Sequence record: MN850616.1
Length of the DNA stretch: 40,308 bases
Strand: one strand, 5' to 3'
DNA from: Escherichia phage buks
Position numbers and translations under genes: made by a program. The notes under the pieces are model-generated. The model made no database searches and was not told where the DNA came from. It saw only the letters and a list, made by a program, of their open reading frames with translations. This document shows positions 4,525-20,141 of the stretch, piece after piece. Within the stretch, counting starts at the first letter, position 1, and every line of letters begins with the position of its first letter.

Positions 4525-6858
4525 TCAATATCCTGGTTGGCCGCGTGTAGCGCGACGTGATTTAGAAATGGCGCTGTTACTATCCAGCAACGCTGAACTT
4601 ACGGTTTCACTGATTATAATACGCAACCGGCCTTCATCGTCGCGTTCTGTTGCAGCAGAATCAATTCTTCCAGTGGTGTTGTTCACGATAGTAACATTAT
4701 CTCCACCGGATTTAGCGCCATTCTCACCCATAATCTGTCGCATCTGCTCCGCCGTTCGGACACGGGAGGCGTTGGCGGGCATAATCACTTCTGGTTTACC
4801 GCGTTCGGCAATAGTAGACATCTGGCCTGCGGCCAGGTTACCACCCTGTTCTCGGGCGGAGCGAATCTTACCTACGTTTGCTAAACCAGCCGCCACCGCA
4901 GCAGCCGCAGCAACAGGCGCCAGATACGGGCCGACTACCGGTATGGCTGCTGTTGATTTATACGCTTCGACCGCTGATGTGTACGTAGCTATGGTCGCCT
5001 GAGCAATTGCAAATGCTTTGTATGCCGTGGAAGCCTCTCCTAGCGCGGCCCCGATGTTACTAGCCATATTACCGAATGCGGCGCCTGTTGCCTTCGCTCG
5101 GTCTAATGCGTAAGTATCATTCATTGCGTTTAGGGTCTGTTGGTAGGTTTCTTCAGCAATCAAACCCTGCGCATGAAAATCGTTAAGTTTTTGTAGCTTG
5201 ACCTCGTACTGCCGGTCTAATTCCGCAAATTCTCCTTCAGCAAGGGCCTGCATCTGAGCGACATACGCATCTGCGGAGAATTGTTTTTCCAGGCGCTCTT
5301 TCTCGCGTTTATCTAACTCAGCCTGGCGGGCCGTATCCGCCTCGAGCATAATCTGTGTCTTAGCGGTTTCGTATTGCTGGTCACTAAGGAGACGGTTGCT
5401 GTAGAACTCCTGTAGCTTAGTAAGTTGCTCTTCTTGGTTAGCTTGTATCTTCTGGAATACGTCGTCGTTAAGGTGGATTGACTGATAATAGAAATCCTCA
5501 GCGGCTTTCTTCTGGCGTTCGAATGCGTCGACGGATTTCTTGGCGGCCTTGTCTGCGGAATCACCTGTAGAACCGCTGTCCTTACCTGATACCTTAAACT
5601 TACCTAACCCCTCGGCCTTAGCTGCTTCTTTATCGATGTCGTAAGCCGCTCGCTTCAGCGCGATAAGGTCTTCCTGAGCTTCTACTTGTTCGCGGAAACT
5701 TTTCCGTGTCAGGTCAGCCACACCCCTTTGAGTATCCATAGCAAGCGCTAACTGGAAGTTAAGGTTCTTGGCCTCAGCTACCGACTCTCCCGGCGTCAAG
5801 GCGGCCTTTACAAGACGTCCCGCATCCTGAGCACCTTTAACCATATCTTCAAAAAACCGCTCCATTGCCGTAAATTCCTGGGCAATGAAGTCCAGCGCAT
5901 CTGCCGCTGACTCAGCTATCGTAGATGCGGTCTCCTCTCCGCTTCCGGTAATGCTTTCACTGGTGTAAGTCCAGGCGGAGTTCAAAGCGTTTAACGCGTC
6001 TGCAACCGCCCCAAACGCCGCGTCGAATGAAGCCTCTATCGCACCCCCAACATCGGATGCCATGTCGCCCCACATCTGCATCTCGGCTACGAACTCACCG
6101 GATGCGACCTGAGCGTTTATCTCCTGTATCAGGTCGTCAATATAACGTAAAGGTTCCGCCAGTGACCCTACATCGAGACTAGTGGCAAGGGTCATCTTCA
6201 ACTGAGACCACGAGTCTTCTGCGCTCGCAATAGCACCATTGAGCGTGTTCGCCTGGTCAGCCATCGCCCCGGCGAAGTTAACGTTGCCTATGTTGAGGAG
6301 ATATCGCTCAATATCGGCAGCGTTTTTCTTAACTACAGTAGTCGTCCCCTGGAAGGTAAATTCGATATCACTTTGGTTCTGCTTGGCCTTAATGCCGAAT
6401 TCTTTCAGACGTTCGAATTCAAAGGTGCTCGCATCCGCGACGGCCTCAATCATCTGGTTAAGGTCTTTACCCATAGCCGATGCGGTGTTGCCATAGGAGC
6501 GGAGCGCTTCTTCTGATGGAGTGAGGCCTAGAGCTACCAGCTTACGGAATCCTTCAACAGCCTGTTCAAGTCCGTAAGGGGTGTCGCGGGCGAAGTCCTG
6601 TAAGATACTCAGGGCTTGCTTTGCGCCTTGCGTGCTTCCCGTTAGTGTTTTCAGGCTGGCGGACATCTTGTCGAGTTGCCGTTGTGACTCGACTAGTTCC
6701 TGCGCCGCTTTATATGCTGTAGCTGCGACAACGGCAGCCAGGCCAGTTACCGCGGCCCCCGCAACTTTCGCAGATTTAGAGAGATTATCAAGACGGTCTG
6801 ATGTGGCCTTCGCGCCTTGTTCGGTTACCTTTACTACTAAGCTAGCTACATCAGCCAT
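4525..6858 (-). CDS. Tail tape measure protein
   Basis: ~777 aa, Ala/Glu/Lys/Gln-rich helical sequence, located directly after the tail chaperone pair. Start re-set to ATG 6856-6858 (MADVASL...) with GAGGG RBS 8 nt upstream; the track start at 6873 overlaps the upstream ORF. Confidence 0.85.
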   Translation of the reverse strand: MADVASLVVKVTEQGAKATSDRLDNLSKSAKVAGAAVTGLAAVVAATAYKAAQELVESQRQLDKMSASLKTLTGSTQGAKQALSILQDFARDTPYGLEQAVEGFRKLVALGLTPSEEALRSYGNTASAMGKDLNQMIEAVADASTFEFERLKEFGIKAKQNQSDIEFTFQGTTTVVKKNAADIERYLLNIGNVNFAGAMADQANTLNGAIASAEDSWSQLKMTLATSLDVGSLAEPLRYIDDLIQEINAQVASGEFVAEMQMWGDMASDVGGAIEASFDAAFGAVADALNALNSAWTYTSESITGSGEETASTIAESAADALDFIAQEFTAMERFFEDMVKGAQDAGRLVKAALTPGESVAEAKNLNFQLALAMDTQRGVADLTRKSFREQVEAQEDLIALKRAAYDIDKEAAKAEGLGKFKVSGKDSGSTGDSADKAAKKSVDAFERQKKAAEDFYYQSIHLNDDVFQKIQANQEEQLTKLQEFYSNRLLSDQQYETAKTQIMLEADTARQAELDKREKERLEKQFSADAYVAQMQALAEGEFAELDRQYEVKLQKLNDFHAQGLIAEETYQQTLNAMNDTYALDRAKATGAAFGNMASNIGAALGEASTAYKAFAIAQATIATYTSAVEAYKSTAAIPVVGPYLAPVAAAAAVAAGLANVGKIRSAREQGGNLAAGQMSTIAERGKPEVIMPANASRVRTAEQMRQIMGENGAKSGGDNVTIVNNTTGRIDSAATERDDEGRLRIIISETVSSALLDSNSAISKSRRATRGQPGY

Positions 6859-7210
6859 CGTTTCTGCCCTCAAAAATGGCGTCTAATCCCATGATAATTT
6901 CAGATTCAAACATCCCTATATTCTGACCTGAAATAGTGCTATACGCCACTAAATCTGACCAACTAAGTTGCTCTCTTGGGTATAGCTTTACGCCGTCGTC
7001 ATCAACGCGGCGGGTGAATTTAACATCACGATACTTCTCAAAAGTGGTGAGTAGTTCAGGGGGGCATTCAGGCCCGGCGTCCTGCGTTGTTTCTCCCGCG
7101 TCTTTTATTACCCCCATAGCGATAAGCGCGGCTTTGTGCCCATCGGCGATACTGTCAAACTTGCGCCTTTCGTGGCGGGTTATGAAGTTCCAACGGGCAA
7201 ACTGAAACAA
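6851..7210 (-). CDS. Tail assembly chaperone extension (gpT-like), probably expressed as a -1 frameshift fusion with 7216-7632
   Basis: ORF in the -1 frame relative to the upstream chaperone; it has only a TTG start, and its frame is open upstream into the last ~15 codons of the chaperone gene; classic G/GT arrangement before the tape measure gene. Confidence 0.4.
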   Translation of the reverse strand: MFQFARWNFITRHERRKFDSIADGHKAALIAMGVIKDAGETTQDAGPECPPELLTTFEKYRDVKFTRRVDDDGVKLYPREQLSWSDLVAYSTISGQNIGMFESEIIMGLDAIFEGRNDG

Positions 7211-7215
7211 CGCGT

Positions 7216-7632
7216 CTACTTTTCCTGCAATTGACGCAACTGTTCGTGGTGGAATACGACTACATGTTCCGCCAGGCGCTTATATTGGGTGAGAAGAGTC
7301 TCAAGATTTTCCTTAGTGAACTCATCATCGAGACTCCAGCCATTCACCAATTCGAGAGCCAATTGTCGGTTTAGGTCTCCTGCCGCGTCTTCCATTTTTA
7401 AATTGTATTCTGAGAAGTCTTTTTGCTCTTCGCATTTATCCCGAAGCGGTTTTAATTTACCTACCGCCGCTCGGTACGCCAGGGTGAAGGCACGCATAGC
7501 TTTAACCGCGACATCGGCCTCCGGGGAGACAACGTTCAACCATTCTCCTGAATCTGTACCGTCTTTTAAAGGGATCGGCATGCGCGCGCCTTTCTCGGCT
7601 TCGGCTTCGTAGTAAAAATCGCTAAGTTTCAT
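7216..7632 (-). CDS. Tail assembly chaperone (gpG-like)
   Basis: 138 aa acidic protein immediately upstream of the T-like ORF and tape measure gene; ATG 7630-7632; ends ...QLRQLQEK with GGAAAAG just before the stop codon. Confidence 0.55.
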   Translation of the reverse strand: MKLSDFYYEAEAEKGARMPIPLKDGTDSGEWLNVVSPEADVAVKAMRAFTLAYRAAVGKLKPLRDKCEEQKDFSEYNLKMEDAAGDLNRQLALELVNGWSLDDEFTKENLETLLTQYKRLAEHVVVFHHEQLRQLQEK

Positions 7633-7738
7633 AGTAATGCCCTTTGGTTAGTCGGTTACTGGTTGGTAGTTGCACCAGGCGGGAACCACCCGCTTTTCCG
7701 GTGCGACCGTAGACGCCAAATAAGAATAACAAAATAGC

Positions 7739-7767
7739 TTGCATAACCGTTAATAGTGTTCTATTAT
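7739..7767 (+). promoter_or_regulatory. Sigma70-like promoter TTGCAT-N17-TATTAT with overlapping palindromic operator-like site
   Basis: -35 at 7739-7744, -10 at 7762-7767; 16-bp site TAATAGTGTTCTATTA at 7751-7766; conserved CAACTAAACA 9 nt downstream of the -10. Confidence 0.55.
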
Positions 7768-7801
7768 CTCTACGTCAACTAAACAATATGAGGTTAAGAA
7801 C

Positions 7802-7981
7802 ATGAGCGTTTTTATCGGTATTATCGCGTTTATCTATTTCATTCCGTTCCTGGTAGCCTTGCTACGTAATCATAAAGCCAAATTAGGAATATTCGTATGC
7901 AATCTTTTACTGGGGTGGATTCTTCTGCCGTGGGTAGGCGCTCTCATCTGGGCCTGTAACTCTAATGTTAATGGTAAATAA
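7802..7981 (+). CDS. Small membrane peptide, Imm-like superinfection immunity family (59 aa)
   Basis: Hand-translated ORF missing from the track (<60 aa): MSVFIGIIAFIYFIPFLVALLRNHKAKLGIFVCNLLLGWILLPWVGALIWACNSNVNGK. GAGGT RBS 8 nt upstream; two hydrophobic helices with the ...GW..L.W.GALIWA pattern I recall for superinfection-immunity peptides. First gene after promoter 7739-7767. Confidence 0.55.
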   Translation: MSVFIGIIAFIYFIPFLVALLRNHKAKLGIFVCNLLLGWILLPWVGALIWACNSNVNGK

Positions 7982-8043
7982 TCTGGCTAAATTAAACTTA
8001 CATTATTAGAATCAGATTTGTCTTAAACAATCAGGAAATAAGC

Positions 8044-9198
8044 ATGGTCACTCGCAAAATAACAGATGAACAGTTGCAACAAGAGCTAAATGCTGGCCTC
8101 GGCCCTACTGAAATAGCCAAAAAGTATAATATGTCCCGCCGTAATGTTCAGCTTCGTTCCGCGCGCCTGGCAAAGAAAGGAGTTGGCCACGGGCGCGACG
8201 TAAGCCACCTTGTGCCAGATGGGTATAAGATTAAGGGTACGTCGTCACTGGTAGATGAGTTCGGTAACACGAAACTTCAGTGGGTTAAGACTGACGCTGA
8301 CGCCGAGCGCCAGGTCGAGCTGATGCGAGCCGTTGTGGATGAGATGAAAAAAGATTTACCTAAATATAAACCTGTCACTTTGCCCAAAAATGGCACAGAT
8401 GACGACTTATTAAATCTCTACACAATAACGGACCATCACATTGGATCGCTGGCGTGTCGAGAAGAAGGCGGGGATGATTACGATACCACAATCGCGGAAT
8501 CTCTCGCAGTTGACTGGTTCAACAGTGCGGTTTGTATGAGCCCGCAGAGCGGCGAATGTATCATTAACTTCTTAGGGGACCAAATGCACTACGATGGCAT
8601 GAAGGCAATGACCCCCATGAGCGGTCATATTCTTTCTGCTGATAGTCGCCTGTTTAAAATGATACGTACCGCCATTAAGGTTATCAAGCTGGCTGTCTCG
8701 CTGTGCTTGCGAAAACACAAGAAGGTTAAACTTCTTATCTGTGAGGGTAACCACGACCTTAGTTCTTCCCTGTGGCTCCGAGAGATGTTCTACGAGGTGT
8801 ATACAAATGAGCCTCGCGTCGAGGTTAACCGGGAGGTGTCGCCGTATTATGCGTATAAGTTCGGGGATTGTATGATTTCAGCACATCACGGGCATTGTTC
8901 TAACTTTACTAAAGTAGAGCAGTCTATAATAGGTAAGTATCGGGAGATGTACGGGCAGTGTAAGTTCACATATGTCCATACGGGTCACCTCCACCACCGG
9001 GCGGTTAAAGAGACTAATCTTCTAATTGTTGAGCAACACCAGACATTAGCGGCTAAAGATGAGTATTCTAGTAAAGGCGGTTATTATTCAGGTAGAAGCG
9101 CAAATGTGATTACATACCATAAACGTTACGGGGAGGTGTCCCGCATAAGTATACCTGTTGAAATGCTGCGAGACATAAACCCCAAATCAACATACTAA
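8044..9198 (+). CDS. HTH domain fused to calcineurin-like metallophosphoesterase
   Basis: 384 aa; N-terminal HTH-like segment (GPTEIAKKYNMSRRNVQLRSARL); metallophosphatase motifs in order: TITDHHIG, GDQMHYDG, EGNHD, SAHHGH, HTGHLHH. Confidence 0.7.
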   Translation: MVTRKITDEQLQQELNAGLGPTEIAKKYNMSRRNVQLRSARLAKKGVGHGRDVSHLVPDGYKIKGTSSLVDEFGNTKLQWVKTDADAERQVELMRAVVDEMKKDLPKYKPVTLPKNGTDDDLLNLYTITDHHIGSLACREEGGDDYDTTIAESLAVDWFNSAVCMSPQSGECIINFLGDQMHYDGMKAMTPMSGHILSADSRLFKMIRTAIKVIKLAVSLCLRKHKKVKLLICEGNHDLSSSLWLREMFYEVYTNEPRVEVNREVSPYYAYKFGDCMISAHHGHCSNFTKVEQSIIGKYREMYGQCKFTYVHTGHLHHRAVKETNLLIVEQHQTLAAKDEYSSKGGYYSGRSANVITYHKRYGEVSRISIPVEMLRDINPKSTY

Positions 9199-9213
9199 AA
9201 TGTAGGTGAAAGG

Positions 9214-9714
9214 ATGGATTGGAGTGAGGTTTTTAGCTACAAAAACGGCGTCCTATACTGGAAAGTCAAATCATGTCGCCGTAACGATGTGAATGTAGGG
9301 GATGTGGCCGGGAGTTTGTGTAAAAACGGCTATTGGTATGTCATGTTCGGTAACCGTAAGTTTAAAAGGTCTAGGGTGGTGTATGAGATGTTCTCAGGTA
9401 AGATTCCAAAAGGATTTGTCATAGACCACACCAACCATGATACCTGTGACGACAGAATTGAAAACCTGTCATGCAAATCCAGAAGGGACAACATGGTTAA
9501 CGTGAAAAGGCGCAAAGATAATACCTCAGGAGTTACGGGTGTGGCGCGGAAAGGAAAAGCTAAGTGGAGAGCTTATGCCGTTGTCAACGGTAAGCAGATT
9601 AGTAAAACATTTGACAGAATAGAGGACGCTTTCGCGGAAAGAATTTACATGTCTGTGGCTAATAGGTTCCACATAAATCATGGACTGACAACATTCAACA
9701 ACGGCTATAAATAG
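9214..9714 (+). CDS. Free-standing HNH homing endonuclease with AP2-type DNA-binding domain
   Basis: 166 aa; HNH-type motif (VIDHTNHDTCDDRIENL) followed by AP2-like segment (SGVTGVARKGKAKWRAYAVVNGKQISKTF); AGGTGA RBS. Confidence 0.8.
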   Translation: MDWSEVFSYKNGVLYWKVKSCRRNDVNVGDVAGSLCKNGYWYVMFGNRKFKRSRVVYEMFSGKIPKGFVIDHTNHDTCDDRIENLSCKSRRDNMVNVKRRKDNTSGVTGVARKGKAKWRAYAVVNGKQISKTFDRIEDAFAERIYMSVANRFHINHGLTTFNNGYK

Positions 9715-9723
9715 GGCATAAAG

Positions 9724-9954
9724 ATGACTAACAAATACAATCGAACAATGACAAATACTGACGGAGATAGCATTACCTGTGATGTGTACGACGTTCTGAG
9801 GGCATTTGATATCCGCGACCCGGCACTACAGCATGCGTTGAAGAAACTGTTGTGTATGGGATTGCGGGGGCACAAGGACACAGGAACCGACTTAGCAGAA
9901 GCAATTGAAAGTCTGGAGAAGTTACGGAAATACCGTAGTAATATTGATGAGTGA
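9724..9954 (+). CDS. Hypothetical protein
   Basis: 76 aa ORF followed by a rho-independent terminator; no recognisable motif. Confidence 0.45.
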   Translation: MTNKYNRTMTNTDGDSITCDVYDVLRAFDIRDPALQHALKKLLCMGLRGHKDTGTDLAEAIESLEKLRKYRSNIDE

Positions 9955-9955
9955 G

Positions 9956-9982
9956 AAAAAGGCCCCTTTCGGGGCTTTTTTT
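9956..9982 (+). terminator. Rho-independent terminator
   Basis: Stem GGCCCC / GGGGC with TTTC loop followed by a 7-nt T-run, right after the 9724-9954 gene. Confidence 0.7.
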
Positions 9983-10064
9983 ATCGTCACGATAAAGAAT
10001 CTGATTTGAACGATAAGAATGTTCGAAGTTAAATATATCTACACCAACAAGAGGGGATGAAACC

Positions 10065-10736
10065 ATGAACGAATTAATGAATGTTAGTGAAGCACAAACC
10101 ATGTCCAGCCGTGAGATTGCGGAATTGACGGGGAAAGAACACGACAACGTACGACGCGATATATTAAAAATGGCACAGGAACTTTCCCTCAATTTTGAGG
10201 AAAAGGTTTTGCCTTCAAACGGTGGCAGACCAAGTAAGGTATTTCTCTTAGACAAAGAAAATACATTAATCCTGATTTCAGGGTACAGCATCAAAATGCG
10301 CGCTGCCATCATCCGCCGTTGGCAGGAACTGGAGTCACAAGCGAGCAAACCATCCTTACCGGTGCCCAAGACAATGGGGGAGGCTTTAAGGTTGGCTGCG
10401 GACTTGTGGGAGGAGAAAGAACGCCTTGCGCTTGAGAACAAGGAAATGGCACCAAAAGCTGATGTCTACGACCGCATCATCGACAGAAATAACTTGTACA
10501 ACGCGACGCAGGTTGCCCAGAAGTTCGGTCAATCTGCCGTGTGGATGAATAAACAACTTGAACAATTTGGCGTATACAATCGCTCCGTAAAACGCGGTCG
10601 TGTCTTCCAGCAATGGTTCATCGATAAGGGTTACGGCATTATGCGTGAAACAGAAACTGGTCATTCACAGGCTATGTTCTTCGCTGAAGGTGAAATGTGG
10701 ATTATCGGTAAGTTAACGGCAGAAGGTTTGATTTAA
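10065..10736 (+). CDS. Rha-family phage regulatory protein / antirepressor-like (Rha N-domain plus KilAC-like C-domain)
   Basis: 223 aa; N-terminal ...MSSREIAELTGKEHDNVRRDILKM... resembles the Rha regulatory domain; AGAGGGGA RBS; followed by a bidirectional terminator. Confidence 0.65.
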   Translation: MNELMNVSEAQTMSSREIAELTGKEHDNVRRDILKMAQELSLNFEEKVLPSNGGRPSKVFLLDKENTLILISGYSIKMRAAIIRRWQELESQASKPSLPVPKTMGEALRLAADLWEEKERLALENKEMAPKADVYDRIIDRNNLYNATQVAQKFGQSAVWMNKQLEQFGVYNRSVKRGRVFQQWFIDKGYGIMRETETGHSQAMFFAEGEMWIIGKLTAEGLI

Positions 10737-10764
10737 AACTAAGGCCCCTTTCGGGGCCTTTTTC
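10737..10764. terminator. Bidirectional rho-independent terminator between convergent genes
   Basis: AAGGCCCC-TTTC-GGGGCCTT hairpin flanked by A-run upstream and T-run downstream; sits between the Rha-like gene (+) and the major tail gene (-). Confidence 0.7.
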
Positions 10765-11934
10765 TTAGGCGTACTTAATGCGCTGGATAACAATTGAAGA
10801 CTGGAACTGGTTACCGGTTGCCTGTCCCTCAAGAGAAAGGGTGACAGATTCGGGACCACCGATTTCCGGAGTTGCTGATGTCAACGAAGCGCGTTTTAAG
10901 GTGAAACTCATGGCACCGTCTGGGCCGTTCAGAACAGAAGATACCTCCATTTGCGTTTCGTTCAGGAATTTATTCAATAACGTCATGTCGTACAGCTTAC
11001 CCGCCAACGAGAAGGTGTTAGCCGCGCGGCCACGTTCGACAAATGCCACGCTATTATTCCCTAACTCGAACTGTGCGGACGCGCTGTTGTCGTTAGTAAT
11101 GGTGAACGTGTCGATAAGTTTAAGCGGAGCGGCGCCGTCATAGGCGGATACGTCAACCGATGCAAACGGACGGGCGCTAAAATTGGTCGTGAAATCTGAA
11201 CCACTCGGCAGTGCTTGTAGGATTTCCTGATTAAGACCAATGAACGGGAATGAGCCTGTAACCATCGCGTTAACGGCTTGTTCGATGGTGAACCCTGTAA
11301 ATTCAACACCACGAGTTATGATGTACGAATCAGGATTTCCGCATTTACCTTTCAACCATGTCAGGATTGAATAGGTTTTACACAAGTTACCGGTTTCAAG
11401 TTTATCTGCGATACGCAAATCGGCTTGGGCGTCTGATTCAGCGGTAAGGGTGTGCTGGATGCCCGCTCCGGTTATAACTGTAGCTGTGGCAGCCGTGACC
11501 ATGAACGCTTTGTTGTTATTTCCGGATAAACCGTCGAATTGCACTAGGTCGCCTACCTCAACGCCATCTGTTACAAAGCTGCCGGTGGTGCGTGTGAAAG
11601 TTTTCGCCACCGGGTCTACGGTAACGCTGATTCCAGATTTAGTGGAACCTGCTACCCAGGAACTGGTCATTGCGCCAGCAAGCAACTCATCCTGGCTTTC
11701 CGCGCTAAGTTCAATAGCATATTCACCAGTTACCTGACGGTTACCGGTGCGGATAGATGATGTTTCACGGCTGCCGTCCAGTTCATTAGAGATGAGGGCG
11801 TCGCGGGTTACGGCGGGAATACCCCCAGTGTTGCGCAGTGGTTGCCATACCGGGTTAGCGGGTGTTACCCCCGGCGTCGTCTCAAGAACGTAAAACTGCG
11901 CGGCCATCGCGCCCTTATATGGTTGTAACGCCAT
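10765..11934 (-). CDS. Major tail protein
   Basis: 389 aa ORF that is the last structural gene before the chaperone/tape-measure block (separated only by the plus-strand island); call by synteny. Confidence 0.55.
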   Translation of the reverse strand: MALQPYKGAMAAQFYVLETTPGVTPANPVWQPLRNTGGIPAVTRDALISNELDGSRETSSIRTGNRQVTGEYAIELSAESQDELLAGAMTSSWVAGSTKSGISVTVDPVAKTFTRTTGSFVTDGVEVGDLVQFDGLSGNNNKAFMVTAATATVITGAGIQHTLTAESDAQADLRIADKLETGNLCKTYSILTWLKGKCGNPDSYIITRGVEFTGFTIEQAVNAMVTGSFPFIGLNQEILQALPSGSDFTTNFSARPFASVDVSAYDGAAPLKLIDTFTITNDNSASAQFELGNNSVAFVERGRAANTFSLAGKLYDMTLLNKFLNETQMEVSSVLNGPDGAMSFTLKRASLTSATPEIGGPESVTLSLEGQATGNQFQSSIVIQRIKYA

Positions 11935-13104: not shown

Positions 13105-13709
13105 TACGCAGCCTCCAGTCTCGAGATAACCAATAAGGCTGACGGCGCTACACCCCACGAAGTAACCGTTGCCGCTTGCAGGTATAATCCGCCGAAGTTA
13201 GAACCGGCGGCATCGCGCATAATCTCTACCGCGAAGTTTTGCCCGGCGACGGCGTTAACTACCACACGCGATTCAATAGGAATCGTGGCGTCTGCGCTTG
13301 CCAGTTTAGTAGCGGCTGGTGAACCGAATTGGGCGCCGCCGAGCAGAACACGCGTCAGGAGAATAGATGTCCCGCTCGCCCCGGTGCGCCCAGCCAGCAA
13401 TTTAACACGGATAGCGTAGTTACCAGCGGCGTTGAACGTAACTACCCCGGATGCATTAATCATCACAGGGTCAGCGCTTGTTTTCTGCGCCCCACCAAAG
13501 GATACGGTTAACGCTGTACCAGTGGTAGTTGGCGCCTGGATATCTGTAGACGCCGCGCGAAGTACTTCTACTTCCTTAACGCCGTAAAGCATAGAATCCG
13601 CGATTTGCGTGGTAACTTCGCGCAACTTTTCCGGTGTAATTAGCCCGGACTGGTTATCAGGGAAGTTTGCCCCAATTAAGGCGAATATTTCCGATTTAGT
13701 CTTAGCCAT
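13104..13709 (-). CDS. Virion structural protein (function not assignable)
   Basis: 201 aa Ala/Gly/Thr-rich ORF in the head-tail region; ATG 13707-13709. Confidence 0.4.
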   Translation of the reverse strand: MAKTKSEIFALIGANFPDNQSGLITPEKLREVTTQIADSMLYGVKEVEVLRAASTDIQAPTTTGTALTVSFGGAQKTSADPVMINASGVVTFNAAGNYAIRVKLLAGRTGASGTSILLTRVLLGGAQFGSPAATKLASADATIPIESRVVVNAVAGQNFAVEIMRDAAGSNFGGLYLQAATVTSWGVAPSALLVISRLEAA

Positions 13710-13711
13710 GA

Positions 13712-14221
13712 TTAACCCCTGAAAACATTAAAGGAGTAGGCATTATTGCTACCACATAAGAGAGGGCGTAACGCATCATCGGCTGCTGTGATGCTTACTG
13801 TGCTGCCCGAGTAGCCATTTTTAAAGTAGGACACGGTTACCGCACCCTCAACTCGTTCGGTCTGAACCTCTCGCCCGTCTGTAGACCCCCGAACGTCGGT
13901 ACCCGCACCATACTCTACGGCGGCCATTACCTGAGCCTGAACAATTAACGGAGGGATAACGTTAGATGGCTGAGGGAACCCGTGTAGGGTAATACCGGTT
14001 CTCGGGAACGCCAGCGCCTGGTTCGCCGATACACGGCGACCGCACATCTGCGATTCGAAAAGCCCAACATATACAGCACCATTTCTCAGCGCAGCCTCAG
14101 CCTTAACGTCGTCTTCTGGAAGTTCAAGGCCGTATTTAGCCGCTAGCGCACGTCCGTCTCCCAGGCTGACGTAGGAATCCGCATTAGGTAAGCCTTGTCC
14201 TGTTTCCACGATAAGCGGCAT
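13712..14221 (-). CDS. Putative head-tail connector/adaptor protein
   Basis: 169 aa; N-terminus MPLIVETGQGLPNADSYVSLGDGRALAAKYG resembles gp6-like head-tail connector openings from memory; weak. Confidence 0.35.
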   Translation of the reverse strand: MPLIVETGQGLPNADSYVSLGDGRALAAKYGLELPEDDVKAEAALRNGAVYVGLFESQMCGRRVSANQALAFPRTGITLHGFPQPSNVIPPLIVQAQVMAAVEYGAGTDVRGSTDGREVQTERVEGAVTVSYFKNGYSGSTVSITAADDALRPLLCGSNNAYSFNVFRG

Positions 14222-14224
14222 AAA

Positions 14225-14413
14225 TTATTCCTCTACGCTTTTGCGGCGACGACGCTGCTTAGGTTCCCCACCACCGTTGTAATGCGGTTCTTCTGCGACC
14301 GGTTGGGTCTCTATTAATGCACCCGGGTTCGCTTCTTCGCGCATCGGGTTTAACTGCCCGTTGACCTCGACCACACCTTTGTATTGTTCCCTGACTACGT
14401 AATTATCTGCCAT
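14225..14413 (-). CDS. Small basic protein (62 aa)
   Basis: ATG 14411-14413; lysine/arginine-rich C-terminus; between the Ig-like gene and connector-like gene. Confidence 0.4.
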   Translation of the reverse strand: MADNYVVREQYKGVVEVNGQLNPMREEANPGALIETQPVAEEPHYNGGGEPKQRRRRKSVEE

Positions 14414-19490: not shown

Positions 19491-20141
19491 ATGAATGTGC
19501 AGACTTTAGAATTTCCGTATGGCGAGGTGGAATTTACACGTGATGAGTATATAGATGCCTCAACATTAACCATCCAGATGAACAGATGGAGGTTCGATAA
19601 CGGACTCCAACCAAGAAATCTTGCGCAGATACTAAAAACCGATGACTGCAAAAACTTTATGCGTGTGTGTGAGGAGGAGACAGGTATTGTTCCGTTAAAA
19701 ACATCAAGAGGGAGGAACGGGAAGACGTGGTTGTGCCTGCACCTGGCCGTGTACATTGCAGAACAGTATAGTGCGTATTTTCACTTCCTGGTTATAGACC
19801 GATTTATTACGCAACGGCAGGTAGAGCTGCGTAACATTGGTGCGGTAAGCTTCGTGGAGCTTAATGCCGCCGTTAGTAGGATGATTGAACGTACAGAAGG
19901 GCGGATAGGCCATAGTGGACATTTCATACAGGTAGCGAAAGCAATCAAGGAGTCTATAGATATTCGTGAAGTCACAGGTTTTGATACATGGGACTCCCAG
20001 GACGCAAAAACTAATCAATTGCGGAGCGAGATTCAAAAGTCTATGGTGACGTTGTTGGATATGGAAGCAGTCAACTCGTGGGATGAGCTTAAAGAGACAA
20101 TACCGCGTGTTGTTCGCAAATGCGCGGCAAATATATGTTAA
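19491..20141 (+). CDS. KilA-N-like DNA-binding domain protein
   Basis: 216 aa; strong promoter and AAGAGGAG RBS upstream, terminator downstream; segment ...GKTWLCLHLAVYIAEQYSAYFHFLVIDRF... resembles the KilA-N pattern; opposite orientation to the flanking structural genes. Confidence 0.55.
   Translation: MNVQTLEFPYGEVEFTRDEYIDASTLTIQMNRWRFDNGLQPRNLAQILKTDDCKNFMRVCEEETGIVPLKTSRGRNGKTWLCLHLAVYIAEQYSAYFHFLVIDRFITQRQVELRNIGAVSFVELNAAVSRMIERTEGRIGHSGHFIQVAKAIKESIDIREVTGFDTWDSQDAKTNQLRSEIQKSMVTLLDMEAVNSWDELKETIPRVVRKCAANIC

What the first reader, a model, noticed from the sequence alone, without database searches (positions are those of the whole stretch)
7633..10764. Plus-strand accessory island inserted between the major tail gene and the tail chaperone genes
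Five plus-strand genes interrupt the minus-strand structural block at the junction between major tail protein and chaperones: an Imm-like membrane peptide, an HTH-metallophosphoesterase fusion, an HNH-AP2 homing endonuclease, a small ORF and a Rha-like regulator. The island has its own operator-bearing promoter (7739-7767) and two terminators (9956-9982, 10737-10764). The content looks like a host-takeover, superinfection-exclusion or anti-defence cassette.
Basis: partly seen in the sequence, partly recalled or inferred. Interest (0 to 1): 0.55.

Follow-up and report, generated by a model that had tools for sequence, protein, structure and literature searches.

The report
Opposite-strand cargo slot in tail operon
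Between the tail-tube gene and the tail-chaperone genes, this Salmonella phage carries a backwards-facing set of five real genes that sits in an old, reusable "cargo slot"; it is already annotated in hundreds of related phage genomes, so it is ordinary, though its modular make-up is instructive.

Summary
The window is Salmonella phage blauehaus (Jerseyvirus, Guernseyvirinae), reverse-complemented, and the five plus-strand genes are its annotated gp38-gp34.

The gene identities are mostly right:
- Imm-like two-helix membrane protein.
- Winged-HTH plus metallophosphoesterase (MPE), with all five catalytic motifs.
- HNH homing endonuclease; its AP2 part is unproven.
- A strongly conserved 76-aa protein of unknown fold.
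- A Rha+KilAC regulator.

Both terminators are real. The promoter is a weak consensus match, but its hexamers are largely conserved across three genera and Serratia phage Eta. No operator was found.

This is not one coherent cassette. It is a conserved slot at a transcription break, built as tube gene, bidirectional terminator, cargo, overlapping divergent promoters, chaperones. Serratia phage Eta and Cornellvirus use the same slot for different cargo.

The cargo is modular:
- Position 1 alternates between Imm and a secreted two-cysteine protein.
- The MPE occurs in all three Guernseyvirinae genera sampled and in about 2,050 phage records.
- The HNH gene travels with a swapped MPE catalytic domain (8349-9722), a homing/co-conversion signature.
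- The Rha cassette lies between duplicated terminators and is often absent.

The MPE's closest folds are nucleases (PolD DP1, Mre11, SbcD), not protein phosphatases. Functions remain inferred.

The parts
7668..7708 (.). Conserved two-tier hairpin in the divergent intergenic region, just outside the island transcript. Its function is unknown; it may be the leader of the chaperone/tape-measure mRNA or a plus-strand terminator-like element.
   Evidence: Free energy is -23.3 kcal/mol on the plus strand (z -4.9) and -21.8 kcal/mol on the minus strand. The core GCGGGAACCACCCGC is identical in Jerseyvirus and in Bas71, and differs by one base in other Kagunavirus. Cornellvirus has GCAG...CTGC, one G-C to A-T double change, with the AACCA loop kept. 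It occurs once in the genome.
7739..7767 (+). Island promoter candidate, TTGCAT-17-TATTAT (sigma-70 type).
   Evidence: It is an 8/12 match, below the scan threshold. TTGCA of the first hexamer is kept in 8 phages of two genera while the spacer differs and also in Cornellvirus VSiP and Serratia Eta; the second hexamer is TATTAT/TACTAT except in VSiP, which has TATATT. No operator-like repeat was found.
7750..7778 (-). Candidate divergent promoter for the chaperone, tape-measure and distal tail genes: TTGACG-17-TATTAA on the minus strand, overlapping the island promoter almost completely.
   Evidence: Read directly from the sequence. It is below the scan threshold. The corresponding hexamers are TTGGTG-16-TATTAT in Kagunavirus (my reading of the alignment). 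Eta's depositors annotate divergent promoters at the same place. This is an inference.
7802..7981 (+). Imm-like two-helix inner-membrane protein (59 aa), the position-1 cargo.
   Evidence: Pfam PF14373 Imm_superinfect, E 2e-15, 56.7 bits against a cut-off of 27.9. PHROG 1039 'immunity to superinfection', E 3e-23. Two hydrophobic spans, residues 1-24 and 26-53. dN/dS 0.05. In phages pink and Bas71 it is replaced by a roughly 109-aa protein with a signal peptide.
8044..9198 (+). Winged-HTH plus metallophosphoesterase (384 aa). The wHTH and linker are residues 1-~103 (8044-8348); the catalytic domain is residues ~119-375.
8349..9722 (+). Swapped tract: the MPE catalytic domain plus the HNH gene, replaced as one block relative to phages carrying the 376-aa MPE allele.
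   Evidence: blastn similarity to dunkel, PVP-SE2 and SETP7 stops at 8348 and resumes at 9723/9724. The MPE is 98% identical over residues 1-101 and 47% identical over residues 102-384.
9214..9714 (+). Free-standing HNH homing endonuclease (166 aa).
   Evidence: Pfam HNH_3, E 6e-16. PHROG 99, E 2e-49. PADLOC homing-endonuclease entry. Copies at >=95% identity occur in 116 records, against 158 records with this MPE allele. Phage QS lacks the gene but keeps its first 36 nt and a small duplication. Dunkel carries a different HNH (33% identity) at the same site, and KMB36 carries one after orf76.
9724..9954 (+). orf76, a conserved small protein of unknown function.
   Evidence: It is 84-100% identical within Jerseyvirus and 88-91% identical in Kagunavirus. 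In the same phages the tube protein is about 70% identical and the MPE about 54%. dN/dS 0.04-0.08. tblastn finds 773 phage records. The AlphaFold2 model (pLDDT 84) is a hairpin plus three helices. There is no PDB fold match and no Pfam match.
9956..9982 (+). Terminator T1 after orf76. It is also the left copy of the repeat that bounds the Rha cassette.
   Evidence: Hairpin plus T7, -19 kcal/mol, z -4.3. The scan lists it only on the minus strand. It cross-matches T2 over 23-27 nt.
10065..10736 (+). Rha N-terminal domain plus KilAC (ANT) C-terminal domain regulator (223 aa); an optional cassette.
   Evidence: Pfam Phage_pRha, E 6e-16, and ANT, E 2e-10, both above cut-off. PHROG 63 'anti-repressor Ant', E 6e-60. 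It is absent from SETP7, pink and all Kagunavirus examined. Copies at >=80% identity occur in 260 records.
10737..10764 (.). Bidirectional terminator T2, shared by the Rha gene (plus strand) and the tail tube gene (minus strand).
   Evidence: The scan finds it on both strands with 8 pairs, 6 of them G-C. Free energy is -15.6 and -18.7 kcal/mol. The equivalent element is annotated in PVP-SE2, Shashou and Eta.

Best explanation
The block is the current content of an old, reusable cargo slot at a natural transcription break in the tail operon. It is not a single functional cassette.

**Slot architecture.** The order is: tube gene, bidirectional terminator, cargo on the opposite strand, two overlapping divergent sigma-70-like promoters, chaperone genes. 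This architecture is shared by Jerseyvirus, Kagunavirus, Cornellvirus and Serratia phage Eta. The cargo differs between them. In this phage the cargo consists of independently moving modules.

1. **Position 1: a cell-envelope protein.** Here it is a T4 Imm-like two-helix membrane protein. I infer that it is made from the host-type promoter early in infection and hinders DNA entry by later-arriving phages.
2. **A winged-HTH metallophosphoesterase.** It is found in all three Guernseyvirinae genera sampled. I infer that it is a metal-dependent nuclease acting on DNA (or RNA) ends, in the manner of Mre11/SbcD or the PolD DP1 exonuclease. It might process or degrade nucleic acid during takeover or replication.
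3. **A selfish HNH homing endonuclease.** It lies between the MPE and orf76. I infer that it cuts HNH-free relatives in or near the MPE gene. Repair then copies in the endonuclease together with the donor's divergent MPE catalytic domain.
4. **orf76.** A strongly constrained small protein of unknown role.
5. **An optional Rha/KilAC regulator cassette.** I infer that it is gained or lost by recombination between two copies of the same terminator.

**Shown:** anatomy, family membership, distribution, recombination boundaries, purifying selection. **Inferred:** timing of expression and every biochemical function.
For: **Identity and annotation.**

**The slot is conserved while its cargo varies.**
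- Jerseyvirus variants and Kagunavirus variants.
- Cornellvirus holds a DUF3268 zinc-finger protein plus a secreted protein in the slot, and its MPE lies among the head genes.
- Serratia Eta holds a single secreted 111-aa protein, with annotated divergent promoters and a bidirectional terminator.
- A Vibrio phage with a 31%-identical tube protein has no slot.

**The promoter belongs to the slot.** TTGCA of the first hexamer is conserved across genera whatever gene follows, and the second hexamer stays close to TATTAT.

**Position 1 alternates.** It is either Imm or a secreted two-cysteine protein.

**MPE.** Five motifs are invariant, the model is confident, nuclease folds score highest, and it is found in 2,050 phage records and 4,239 clusters. 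Elsewhere it sits beside nucleic-acid enzymes:
- K1G: MPE, HAD PNKP-type phosphatase, P-loop protein.
- Erwinia VyarbaL: 5'-3' exonuclease, endonuclease, MPE, polynucleotide kinase, ligase.

**HNH.**
- Presence/absence polymorphism and a deletion remnant.
- The swapped tract is bounded at 8348 and 9723.
- No coverage class corresponds to HNH166 paired with the other MPE allele.
- HNH genes adjoin the MPE in Tls as well.
- The general mechanism is documented for T4 mobE (PMC2790892). Nuclease genes at boundaries of genetic exchange are described in PMC10448857.

**Rha cassette.** It lies between duplicated terminators, and SETP7 and pink have a single terminator where it is absent.

**Purifying selection.** dN/dS of 0.03-0.08 for Imm, the MPE N-terminal domain, orf76 and Rha.
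Against: - No expression data were found, so early timing and use of the proposed promoters are inferred from weak consensus matches (8/12).
- The Imm function is transferred from T4. PMC8425127 states that the role in Jerseyvirus is unknown.
- The cleavage site of the HNH enzyme is unknown. The tract could come from ordinary mosaic recombination that happens to end at the HNH gene.
- Homology between the pink/Bas71 secreted proteins and the Eta/VSiP ones is not significant by BLASTP.
Confidence: 0.75

Rival explanations
1. The five genes form one host-takeover, superinfection-exclusion or anti-defence cassette. The MPE destroys a defence signal (cyclic nucleotides) or removes phosphates from proteins, and the Rha-like protein controls the set.
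For: - One promoter and shared orientation.
- An Imm-family first gene.
- Cyclic-nucleotide phosphodiesterases such as Rv0805 and GpdQ appear among the fold matches.
- The content varies between relatives, as expected of arms-race genes.
Against: - The modules have different distributions and move separately.
- The Rha gene lies behind a terminator and is absent from many relatives that keep the other genes.
- The MPE carries a DNA-binding-type winged HTH throughout the family.
- No defence or anti-defence model matches any gene.
- The MPE occurs in all three Guernseyvirinae genera sampled and in about 2,050 phage records, which is not the pattern of an accessory gene.
Confidence: 0.15
2. The MPE is part of a nucleic-acid end-healing (repair) pathway. 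It removes 2',3'-cyclic or 3'-phosphate ends, as the metallophosphoesterase domain of bacterial Pnkp does, so that broken tRNA or DNA can be re-ligated after attack by host nucleases.
For: - In K1G the MPE is followed by a HAD PNKP-type phosphatase and a P-loop protein.
- In Erwinia phage VyarbaL it sits between an exonuclease/endonuclease pair and polynucleotide kinase plus DNA ligase.
Against: - Blauehaus and most Jerseyvirus genomes have no annotated kinase or ligase partner.
- The top fold matches are exonucleases rather than end-healing phosphatases.
- The neighbours differ in Tls (HNH, holin) and in slur05 (lysis genes, terminase).
Confidence: 0.2
3. The divergent MPE catalytic domain plus HNH tract is ordinary mosaic recombination between co-infecting phages, unrelated to endonuclease activity. 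The HNH gene is a passive passenger, or already inactive.
For: - Jerseyvirus genomes are mosaic in general (PMC8425127).
- The left boundary falls at a protein-domain junction, a favourable place for any viable recombinant.
Against: - The right boundary coincides exactly with the end of the HNH insertion.
- This HNH was not seen with the other MPE allele.
- Different HNH genes recur next to MPE genes in unrelated phages.
- The HNH ORF is intact and >=95% identical in 116 records.
Confidence: 0.25

Closest known systems
Phage 'morons' and cargo slots: independently transcribed genes with their own promoter and terminator, inserted between late genes (as described for lambdoid phages; from my own knowledge)
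   Same: It has its own sigma-70-like promoter and flanking terminators, lies between two tail genes, and has lower G+C. The content varies between close relatives.
   Different: The orientation is opposite to the host operon. The slot is retained over at least three genera plus Serratia Eta. It holds a multi-gene, modular load that includes a gene found in all three Guernseyvirinae genera sampled.
T4 Imm (Pfam PF14373 Imm_superinfect)
   Same: The family match is above the curated cut-off. The protein is small and has two membrane-spanning helices.
   Different: It is 59 aa, encoded by a small virulent siphovirus. No exclusion phenotype has been shown, and PMC8425127 says the role in Jerseyvirus is unknown.
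Mre11/SbcD and the PolD DP1 proofreading exonuclease (calcineurin-like metallophosphoesterase nucleases)
   Different: Sequence identity is only 13-15%. No Rad50/SbcC-like partner is annotated in the genome. The N-terminal winged HTH is not found in those proteins. No activity has been shown.
Phage T5 A1, a predicted metallophosphatase that is necessary and sufficient for host DNA degradation (bioRxiv 10.64898/2026.04.02.716235)
   Same: It is a phage-encoded metallophosphoesterase. That preprint describes it as resembling double-strand-break-repair nucleases and polymerase proofreading subunits, the same structural neighbours found here. The motif order is the same, and both share an NHD-x3-S-x-WL stretch.
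   Different: The profile match covers only 20 columns, at 23% probability. T5 A1 belongs to a different PHROG, 1745, is 556 aa long, and has no matching N-terminal region. Treat this as a lead, not a membership.
Free-standing HNH homing endonucleases of T4-like phages, e.g. mobE (PMC2790892), and nuclease genes at boundaries of genetic exchange (PMC10448857)
   Same: It has an HNH_3 domain, an intergenic position next to a conserved gene, and presence/absence polymorphism. A divergent flanking tract ends exactly at the endonuclease gene.
   Different: Cleavage and homing are untested here. The co-transferred tract replaces a whole catalytic domain with a version only 47% identical.
Rha, Roi and Ant (KilAC) regulators of temperate phages
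   Same: It has an N-terminal Phage_pRha domain and a C-terminal ANT/KilAC domain, both above the Pfam cut-offs. It is 29-31% identical to lambdoid Roi.
   Different: It is carried by a phage that is lytic and lacks int and xis genes (PMC8425127; no integrase is annotated). It forms a terminator-bounded optional cassette. It falls below the cut-off of NCBIfam TIGR02681.

Membership tests
Imm_superinfect (PF14373, T4 Imm family) | Match to the family profile above the curated cut-off | tested here: met
   56.7 bits against a cut-off of 27.9, E 2e-15, covering profile positions 1-42 of 42.
Imm_superinfect (PF14373, T4 Imm family) | Small membrane protein with hydrophobic helices | tested here: met
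   Two Kyte-Doolittle hydrophobic spans, residues 1-24 and 26-53.
Imm_superinfect (PF14373, T4 Imm family) | Blocks DNA entry of superinfecting phage | not testable with these tools
   Needs expression and challenge experiments. The literature says the role in Jerseyvirus is unknown.
Calcineurin-like metallophosphoesterase superfamily | Five metal-binding motifs in order: DxH, GD, GNH(D/E), H, GHxH | tested here: met
   D130, H132, G178, D179, N236, H237, H282, G314 and H317 are invariant across 99 homologues; H315 is nearly invariant.
Calcineurin-like metallophosphoesterase superfamily | Match to a Pfam Metallophos model above the gathering score | tested here: not met
   Metallophos_2 scores 12.9 bits against a cut-off of 27, E 0.11. 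Membership therefore rests on motifs and fold.
Calcineurin-like metallophosphoesterase superfamily | Alpha/beta sandwich fold | tested here: met
Mre11/SbcD nucleases | Works with a Rad50/SbcC ATPase partner | tested here: not met
   No such gene is among the 61 annotated genes of the phage. This rests on annotation only.
Mre11/SbcD nucleases | Nuclease activity on DNA ends | not testable with these tools
PPP-type Ser/Thr protein phosphatases (lambda phosphatase-like) | Closest fold and signature motifs GDxHG / GDxVDRG / GNHE | tested here: not met
HNH homing endonuclease (HNH_3, PF13392) | HNH_3 domain above the cut-off | tested here: met
   58.2 bits against a cut-off of 24.8. PHROG 99, E 2e-49.
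HNH homing endonuclease (HNH_3, PF13392) | Presence/absence polymorphism at a fixed site between otherwise similar genomes | tested here: met
   116 records carry it at >=95% identity, against 158 with the same MPE allele. QS holds a deletion remnant. In 376-aa-allele phages the site is empty, with the MPE stop overlapping the orf76 start.
   There is no AP2 hit at E<=10 for this protein. The 33%-identical HNH of dunkel gives AP2 at 19.8 bits against a cut-off of 33.3.
HNH homing endonuclease (HNH_3, PF13392) | Site-specific cleavage of the endonuclease-free allele and biased inheritance | not testable with these tools
   Only the boundary of the divergent tract at 9722/9723 is seen.
Rha / KilAC (ANT) regulators | Phage_pRha N-terminal domain and ANT C-terminal domain above the cut-offs | tested here: met
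   59.2 bits against 29.9, and 41.3 bits against 25.3.
Rha / KilAC (ANT) regulators | NCBIfam TIGR02681 phage_pRha subfamily cut-off | tested here: not met
   32.5 bits against a cut-off of 45.95.
Moron / cargo slot | Own promoter and terminator, variable content at a fixed site, atypical composition | tested here: met
   Promoter hexamers are largely conserved. Terminators are present. Ten different contents were seen at the same site. G+C is 0.43-0.47 against about 0.51 in the flanks. Promoter activity itself is untested.

The most novel reading that the evidence does not exclude
The winged-HTH metallophosphoesterase may be the small-siphovirus counterpart of T5 A1: a DNA-targeted metal nuclease that breaks down or processes host DNA. 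The family is large and uncharacterised, with about 2,050 phage records and more than 4,000 sequence clusters, and includes T1-like phages, Dhillonvirus and Guernseyvirinae. In this reading, homing endonucleases repeatedly target its gene and shuffle whole catalytic domains between phages.
Probability: 0.2. Interest if true: 0.55.

Novelty: already known. Interest (0 to 1): 0.27.

Why it matters
The practical value is modest. The window is a published phage, and these genes are already annotated in hundreds of therapeutic-candidate Salmonella and E. coli phage genomes.

What the analysis adds is a clearer reading of a region that annotators label inconsistently. The same MPE gene is called 'DNA polymerase II', 'oxidoreductase', 'site-specific recombinase', 'transcriptional regulator' or 'Ser/Thr phosphatase' in different records.

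- The site is a fixed cargo slot at a transcription break. That makes it a natural place for engineered payloads in Jerseyvirus and Kagunavirus chassis.
- The Imm and Rha genes are dispensable in nature, because close relatives lack them.
- The widely shared MPE and orf76 are the two genes here most worth biochemical study.
- The endonuclease-linked swap of an enzyme's catalytic domain is a clean natural example of how selfish nucleases shape phage mosaicism.

Tried and rejected
- **Operator in the promoter.** No inverted or direct repeats in 7633-7801.
- **Known RNA families or tRNAs.** Nothing near threshold.
- **Defence or anti-defence families.** PADLOC gave only a homing-endonuclease entry for the HNH gene. 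NCBIfam gave only a sub-threshold Rha match.
- **orf76 as the C-terminal domain of a P-loop ATPase.** PHROG profile coordinates suggested this. All 34 homologues are small stand-alone proteins, and there is no similarity to K1G's P-loop protein. Rejected.
- **orf76 fold.** The model is fair, but there is no PDB match, no Pfam match, and no fixed pairing with the MPE outside Guernseyvirinae.
- **MPE as a protein phosphatase.** Rejected on motifs and fold ranking.
- **Specific kinship to T5 A1.** Only a 20-column match at 23% probability, and a different PHROG. Kept as a lead only.
- **Sequence search of solved structures.** Nothing useful for the MPE, HNH or Rha proteins.
- **Literature.** No functional study of this MPE family or of the island was found. 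The genome-reduction paper covers a Skatevirus that has no gene annotated as, or sized like, the MPE, so it gave no essentiality data.

Full report
**What the window is.** The 4.5 kb around the finding is 100% identical to Salmonella phage blauehaus (MT074473/NC_073173; Jerseyvirus, Guernseyvirinae), read as the reverse complement. In that record the five genes are gp38 to gp34. They are annotated as 'immunity to superinfection membrane protein', 'calcineurin-like phosphoesterase superfamily domain protein', 'putative endonuclease', 'hypothetical protein' and 'DNA-binding protein'. megablast finds 452 related phage records, 148 of which cover at least 80% of the region.

**Check of the observation.**
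- The five plus-strand ORFs are at the stated coordinates. They lie between the minus-strand tail tube gene (10765-11934) and the two tail assembly chaperone genes (7216-7632 and 6851-7210).
- Pfam places four domains above its curated cut-offs: Imm_superinfect, HNH_3, Phage_pRha and ANT/KilAC. PHROGs matches all five proteins.
- The tested genes are under strong purifying selection: dN/dS is 0.03-0.08 for Imm, the MPE N-terminal domain, orf76 and Rha.
- The region has lower G+C than its flanks and a reversed GC skew.
- Both terminators are convincing. The one at 10741-10760 is bidirectional and is shared with the convergent tube gene.
- The proposed promoter, TTGCAT-17-TATTAT at 7739-7767, is only an 8/12 match and falls below the scan threshold. 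TTGCA of its first hexamer is kept across Jerseyvirus, Kagunavirus, Cornellvirus and Serratia phage Eta, and the second hexamer stays TATTAT or TACTAT in all but Cornellvirus (TATATT), while the spacer and the downstream gene differ. That is good comparative support.
- No operator-like repeat exists in the region.
- A Pfam AP2 domain is not detectable in this HNH protein.

**The slot is old and its cargo is not.** I fetched the region between the tube gene and the chaperones from 11 relatives and located each protein by tblastn.

| Phage | Group | Cargo between tube gene and chaperones |
|---|---|---|
| blauehaus | Jerseyvirus | Imm, MPE-384, HNH166, orf76, T1, Rha, T2 |
| QS | close relative (genus not assigned in the record) | same, without HNH |
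| dunkel | Jerseyvirus | Imm, MPE-376, a different HNH, orf76, Rha |
| PVP-SE2 | Jerseyvirus | Imm, MPE-376, orf76, Rha |
| SETP7 | Jerseyvirus | Imm, MPE-376, orf76 |
| pink | Jerseyvirus | secreted 109-aa protein, MPE-376, orf76 |
| KMB36 | Kagunavirus | Imm, MPE, 66-aa ORF, orf76, HNH |
| Shashou | Kagunavirus | 30-aa ORF, Imm, MPE, 66-aa ORF, orf76, 57-aa ORF |
| Bas71 | Kagunavirus | 30-aa ORF, secreted 108-aa protein, MPE, orf76 |
| K1G | Kagunavirus | Imm, MPE, HAD PNKP-type phosphatase, P-loop protein |
| VSiP | Cornellvirus | DUF3268 zinc-finger protein, secreted 120-aa protein |
| Eta | Serratia phage | one secreted 111-aa protein |

- In Cornellvirus (VSiA) the MPE sits alone on the opposite strand among the head genes.
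- In Eta the depositors annotated a bidirectional terminator and divergent promoters in the slot.
- A Vibrio phage whose tube protein is 31% identical runs straight from the tube gene into the next tail genes.

The constant feature is therefore the architecture, not the genes. The bidirectional terminator after the abundant tube protein is a natural break in late transcription. The chaperone and tape-measure genes then need their own start. A minus-strand TTGACG-17-TATTAA (7778-7750) overlaps the island promoter almost completely. A slot with ready-made signals explains why cargo accumulates there. This last step is inference.

**Module 1: position 1.** The 59-aa protein is a two-helix membrane protein of the T4 Imm family. 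Where it is missing, the same position holds a roughly 110-aa protein with a signal peptide and two conserved cysteines. This is seen in pink and Bas71. Eta and VSiP carry similar proteins, related to each other at E 3e-5 but not significantly related to the pink type. Both alternatives are envelope proteins encoded next to the promoter. That fits superinfection exclusion, but no phenotype is known.

**Module 2: the winged-HTH metallophosphoesterase.**
- Pfam misses it. Even so, an alignment of 99 diverse homologues shows all five metallophosphoesterase motifs as invariant.
- AlphaFold2 gives a confident model (pLDDT 93) with a three-helix N-terminal domain, a hairpin, a long helix and then the catalytic sandwich.
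- The family is very large: 2,050 phage records by tblastn and 4,239 clusters.
- It appears in different genomic places. In Tls it is next to an HNH gene and the holin. In Dhillonvirus it lies between the lysis genes and the terminase. In an Erwinia podovirus it sits among exonuclease, endonuclease, polynucleotide kinase and ligase genes.

I therefore read it as a nucleic-acid phosphodiesterase, most likely a nuclease, and not as a protein phosphatase. T5 A1 is a predicted metallophosphatase that is necessary and sufficient for host DNA degradation, and it is described as resembling the same two structural classes. It shares motif order and a short NHD-x3-S-x-WL stretch with this family. The profile match is weak, however (20 columns, 23% probability), and A1 belongs to another PHROG. 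This is a lead only.

**Module 3: the HNH gene and the swapped tract.**
- DNA similarity between blauehaus and phages with the 376-aa MPE allele is 96-99% up to position 8348. It vanishes there and returns exactly at 9723/9724, the start of orf76.
- Position 8348 corresponds to MPE residue ~101, the junction between the winged HTH and the catalytic domain.
- The two alleles are 98% identical before that junction and 47% identical after it. The catalytic domain and the HNH gene have thus been replaced together.
- Among the megablast coverage classes, none corresponds to this HNH combined with the other allele.
- 116 records carry the HNH at >=95% identity, against 158 with the 384-aa allele.
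- An HNH-free 384-allele phage (QS) retains the first 36 nt of the HNH ORF and a short duplication, so it is a deletion derivative.
- Different HNH genes sit beside MPE genes in dunkel, KMB36 and Tls.

This is the pattern expected from homing with co-conversion of flanking DNA, as shown experimentally for T4 mobE (PMC2790892). It also matches the published observation that nuclease genes mark boundaries of genetic exchange (PMC10448857). Cleavage itself is untested.

**Module 4: orf76.** This small protein is better conserved between Salmonella and E. coli phages (88-91% identity) than the tube protein (about 70%) or the MPE (about 54%), with dN/dS near 0.04. Homologues occur in 773 phage records, elsewhere among small early genes and not beside an MPE. 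Its model is a hairpin plus three helices with no PDB or Pfam match. Its function remains unknown.

**Module 5: the Rha/KilAC cassette.** The gene lies behind terminator T1 and before T2. The two terminators are near-copies of each other. SETP7 and pink have one terminator and no Rha gene, and Kagunavirus lacks the gene altogether. About 260 records have it at >=80% identity. Outside the Salmonella phages, the closest relative in the sampled hit list is in a Klebsiella myovirus, at 78% amino-acid identity. Gain or loss by recombination between the terminator copies is the simplest reading.

**Verdict.** The description is correct, and the 'variable island' idea survives its own refutation test. 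The 'takeover/anti-defence cassette' reading is only partly supported. One gene is plausibly for exclusion, one is selfish, one is an optional regulator, and the largest is a probable nuclease found in all three Guernseyvirinae genera sampled. Everything here belongs to known kinds and is already annotated in public records, so interest is low to moderate. The uncharacterised MPE family and orf76 are the parts most worth experiments.

Noticed in passing
window 7668-7708: A strongly conserved hairpin (core GCGGGAACCACCCGC, followed by TTTTCC on the plus strand) lies between the chaperone gene start and the island promoter. It is better conserved across genera than the flanking coding sequence. 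Cornellvirus shows one compensatory G-C to A-T change. It occurs once in the genome. Its strand and role are unknown; it may be the mRNA leader of the tail genes or an insulator against antisense transcripts. Short ORFs annotated over it in some records (40 aa minus strand, 30 aa plus strand) are probably spurious.
   Followed up: partly
window 7739-7778: The candidate island promoter (plus strand, 7739-7767) and the candidate promoter for the chaperone/tape-measure genes (minus strand, 7778-7750) overlap almost base for base. RNA polymerase could therefore occupy only one at a time, which might act as an early/late switch. This is speculation.
   Followed up: partly
window 19491-20141 (+): A second plus-strand gene lies inside the minus-strand structural block: a 216-aa ORF annotated as 'amidase' (gp19) between the portal and head-morphogenesis genes. 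In Cornellvirus VSiA the MPE occupies a nearby opposite-strand position among the head genes. The structural operon therefore has more than one such slot.
   Followed up: no
window 9983-10064: The spacer between terminator T1 and the Rha gene contains a short palindrome (ATCGTcACGAT), a near-repeat (ACGATAAAGAAT / ACGATAAGAAT) and a weak TTGAAC-17-TTAAAT promoter-like match. The Rha cassette may have its own regulated promoter.
   Followed up: no
L021 (Salmonella phage seszw, Skatevirus) 13627-14273: An unrelated siphovirus group also has three small opposite-strand genes between its tail tube gene and the next tail gene. Cargo at this junction may be a recurrent feature of siphoviruses.
   Followed up: no
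L008 (phage K1G) 4957-5996; L013 (Erwinia phage VyarbaL) 3004-7815: In K1G the MPE is followed by a split polynucleotide kinase/phosphatase: a HAD PNKP-type phosphatase and then a P-loop protein. In VyarbaL the MPE sits with a 5'-3' exonuclease, an endonuclease, a kinase and a DNA ligase. Both look like nucleic-acid end-processing neighbourhoods.
   Followed up: partly
public records matched: The same MPE gene carries at least eight incompatible product names in GenBank: DNA polymerase II, DNA polymerase II small subunit, oxidoreductase, site-specific recombinase, transcriptional regulator, Ser/Thr phosphatase, recombination endonuclease subunit and DNA repair exonuclease. One record (PP935706, 164,642 bp, with 4 matching places) looks like a mis-assembled concatemer.
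   Followed up: no
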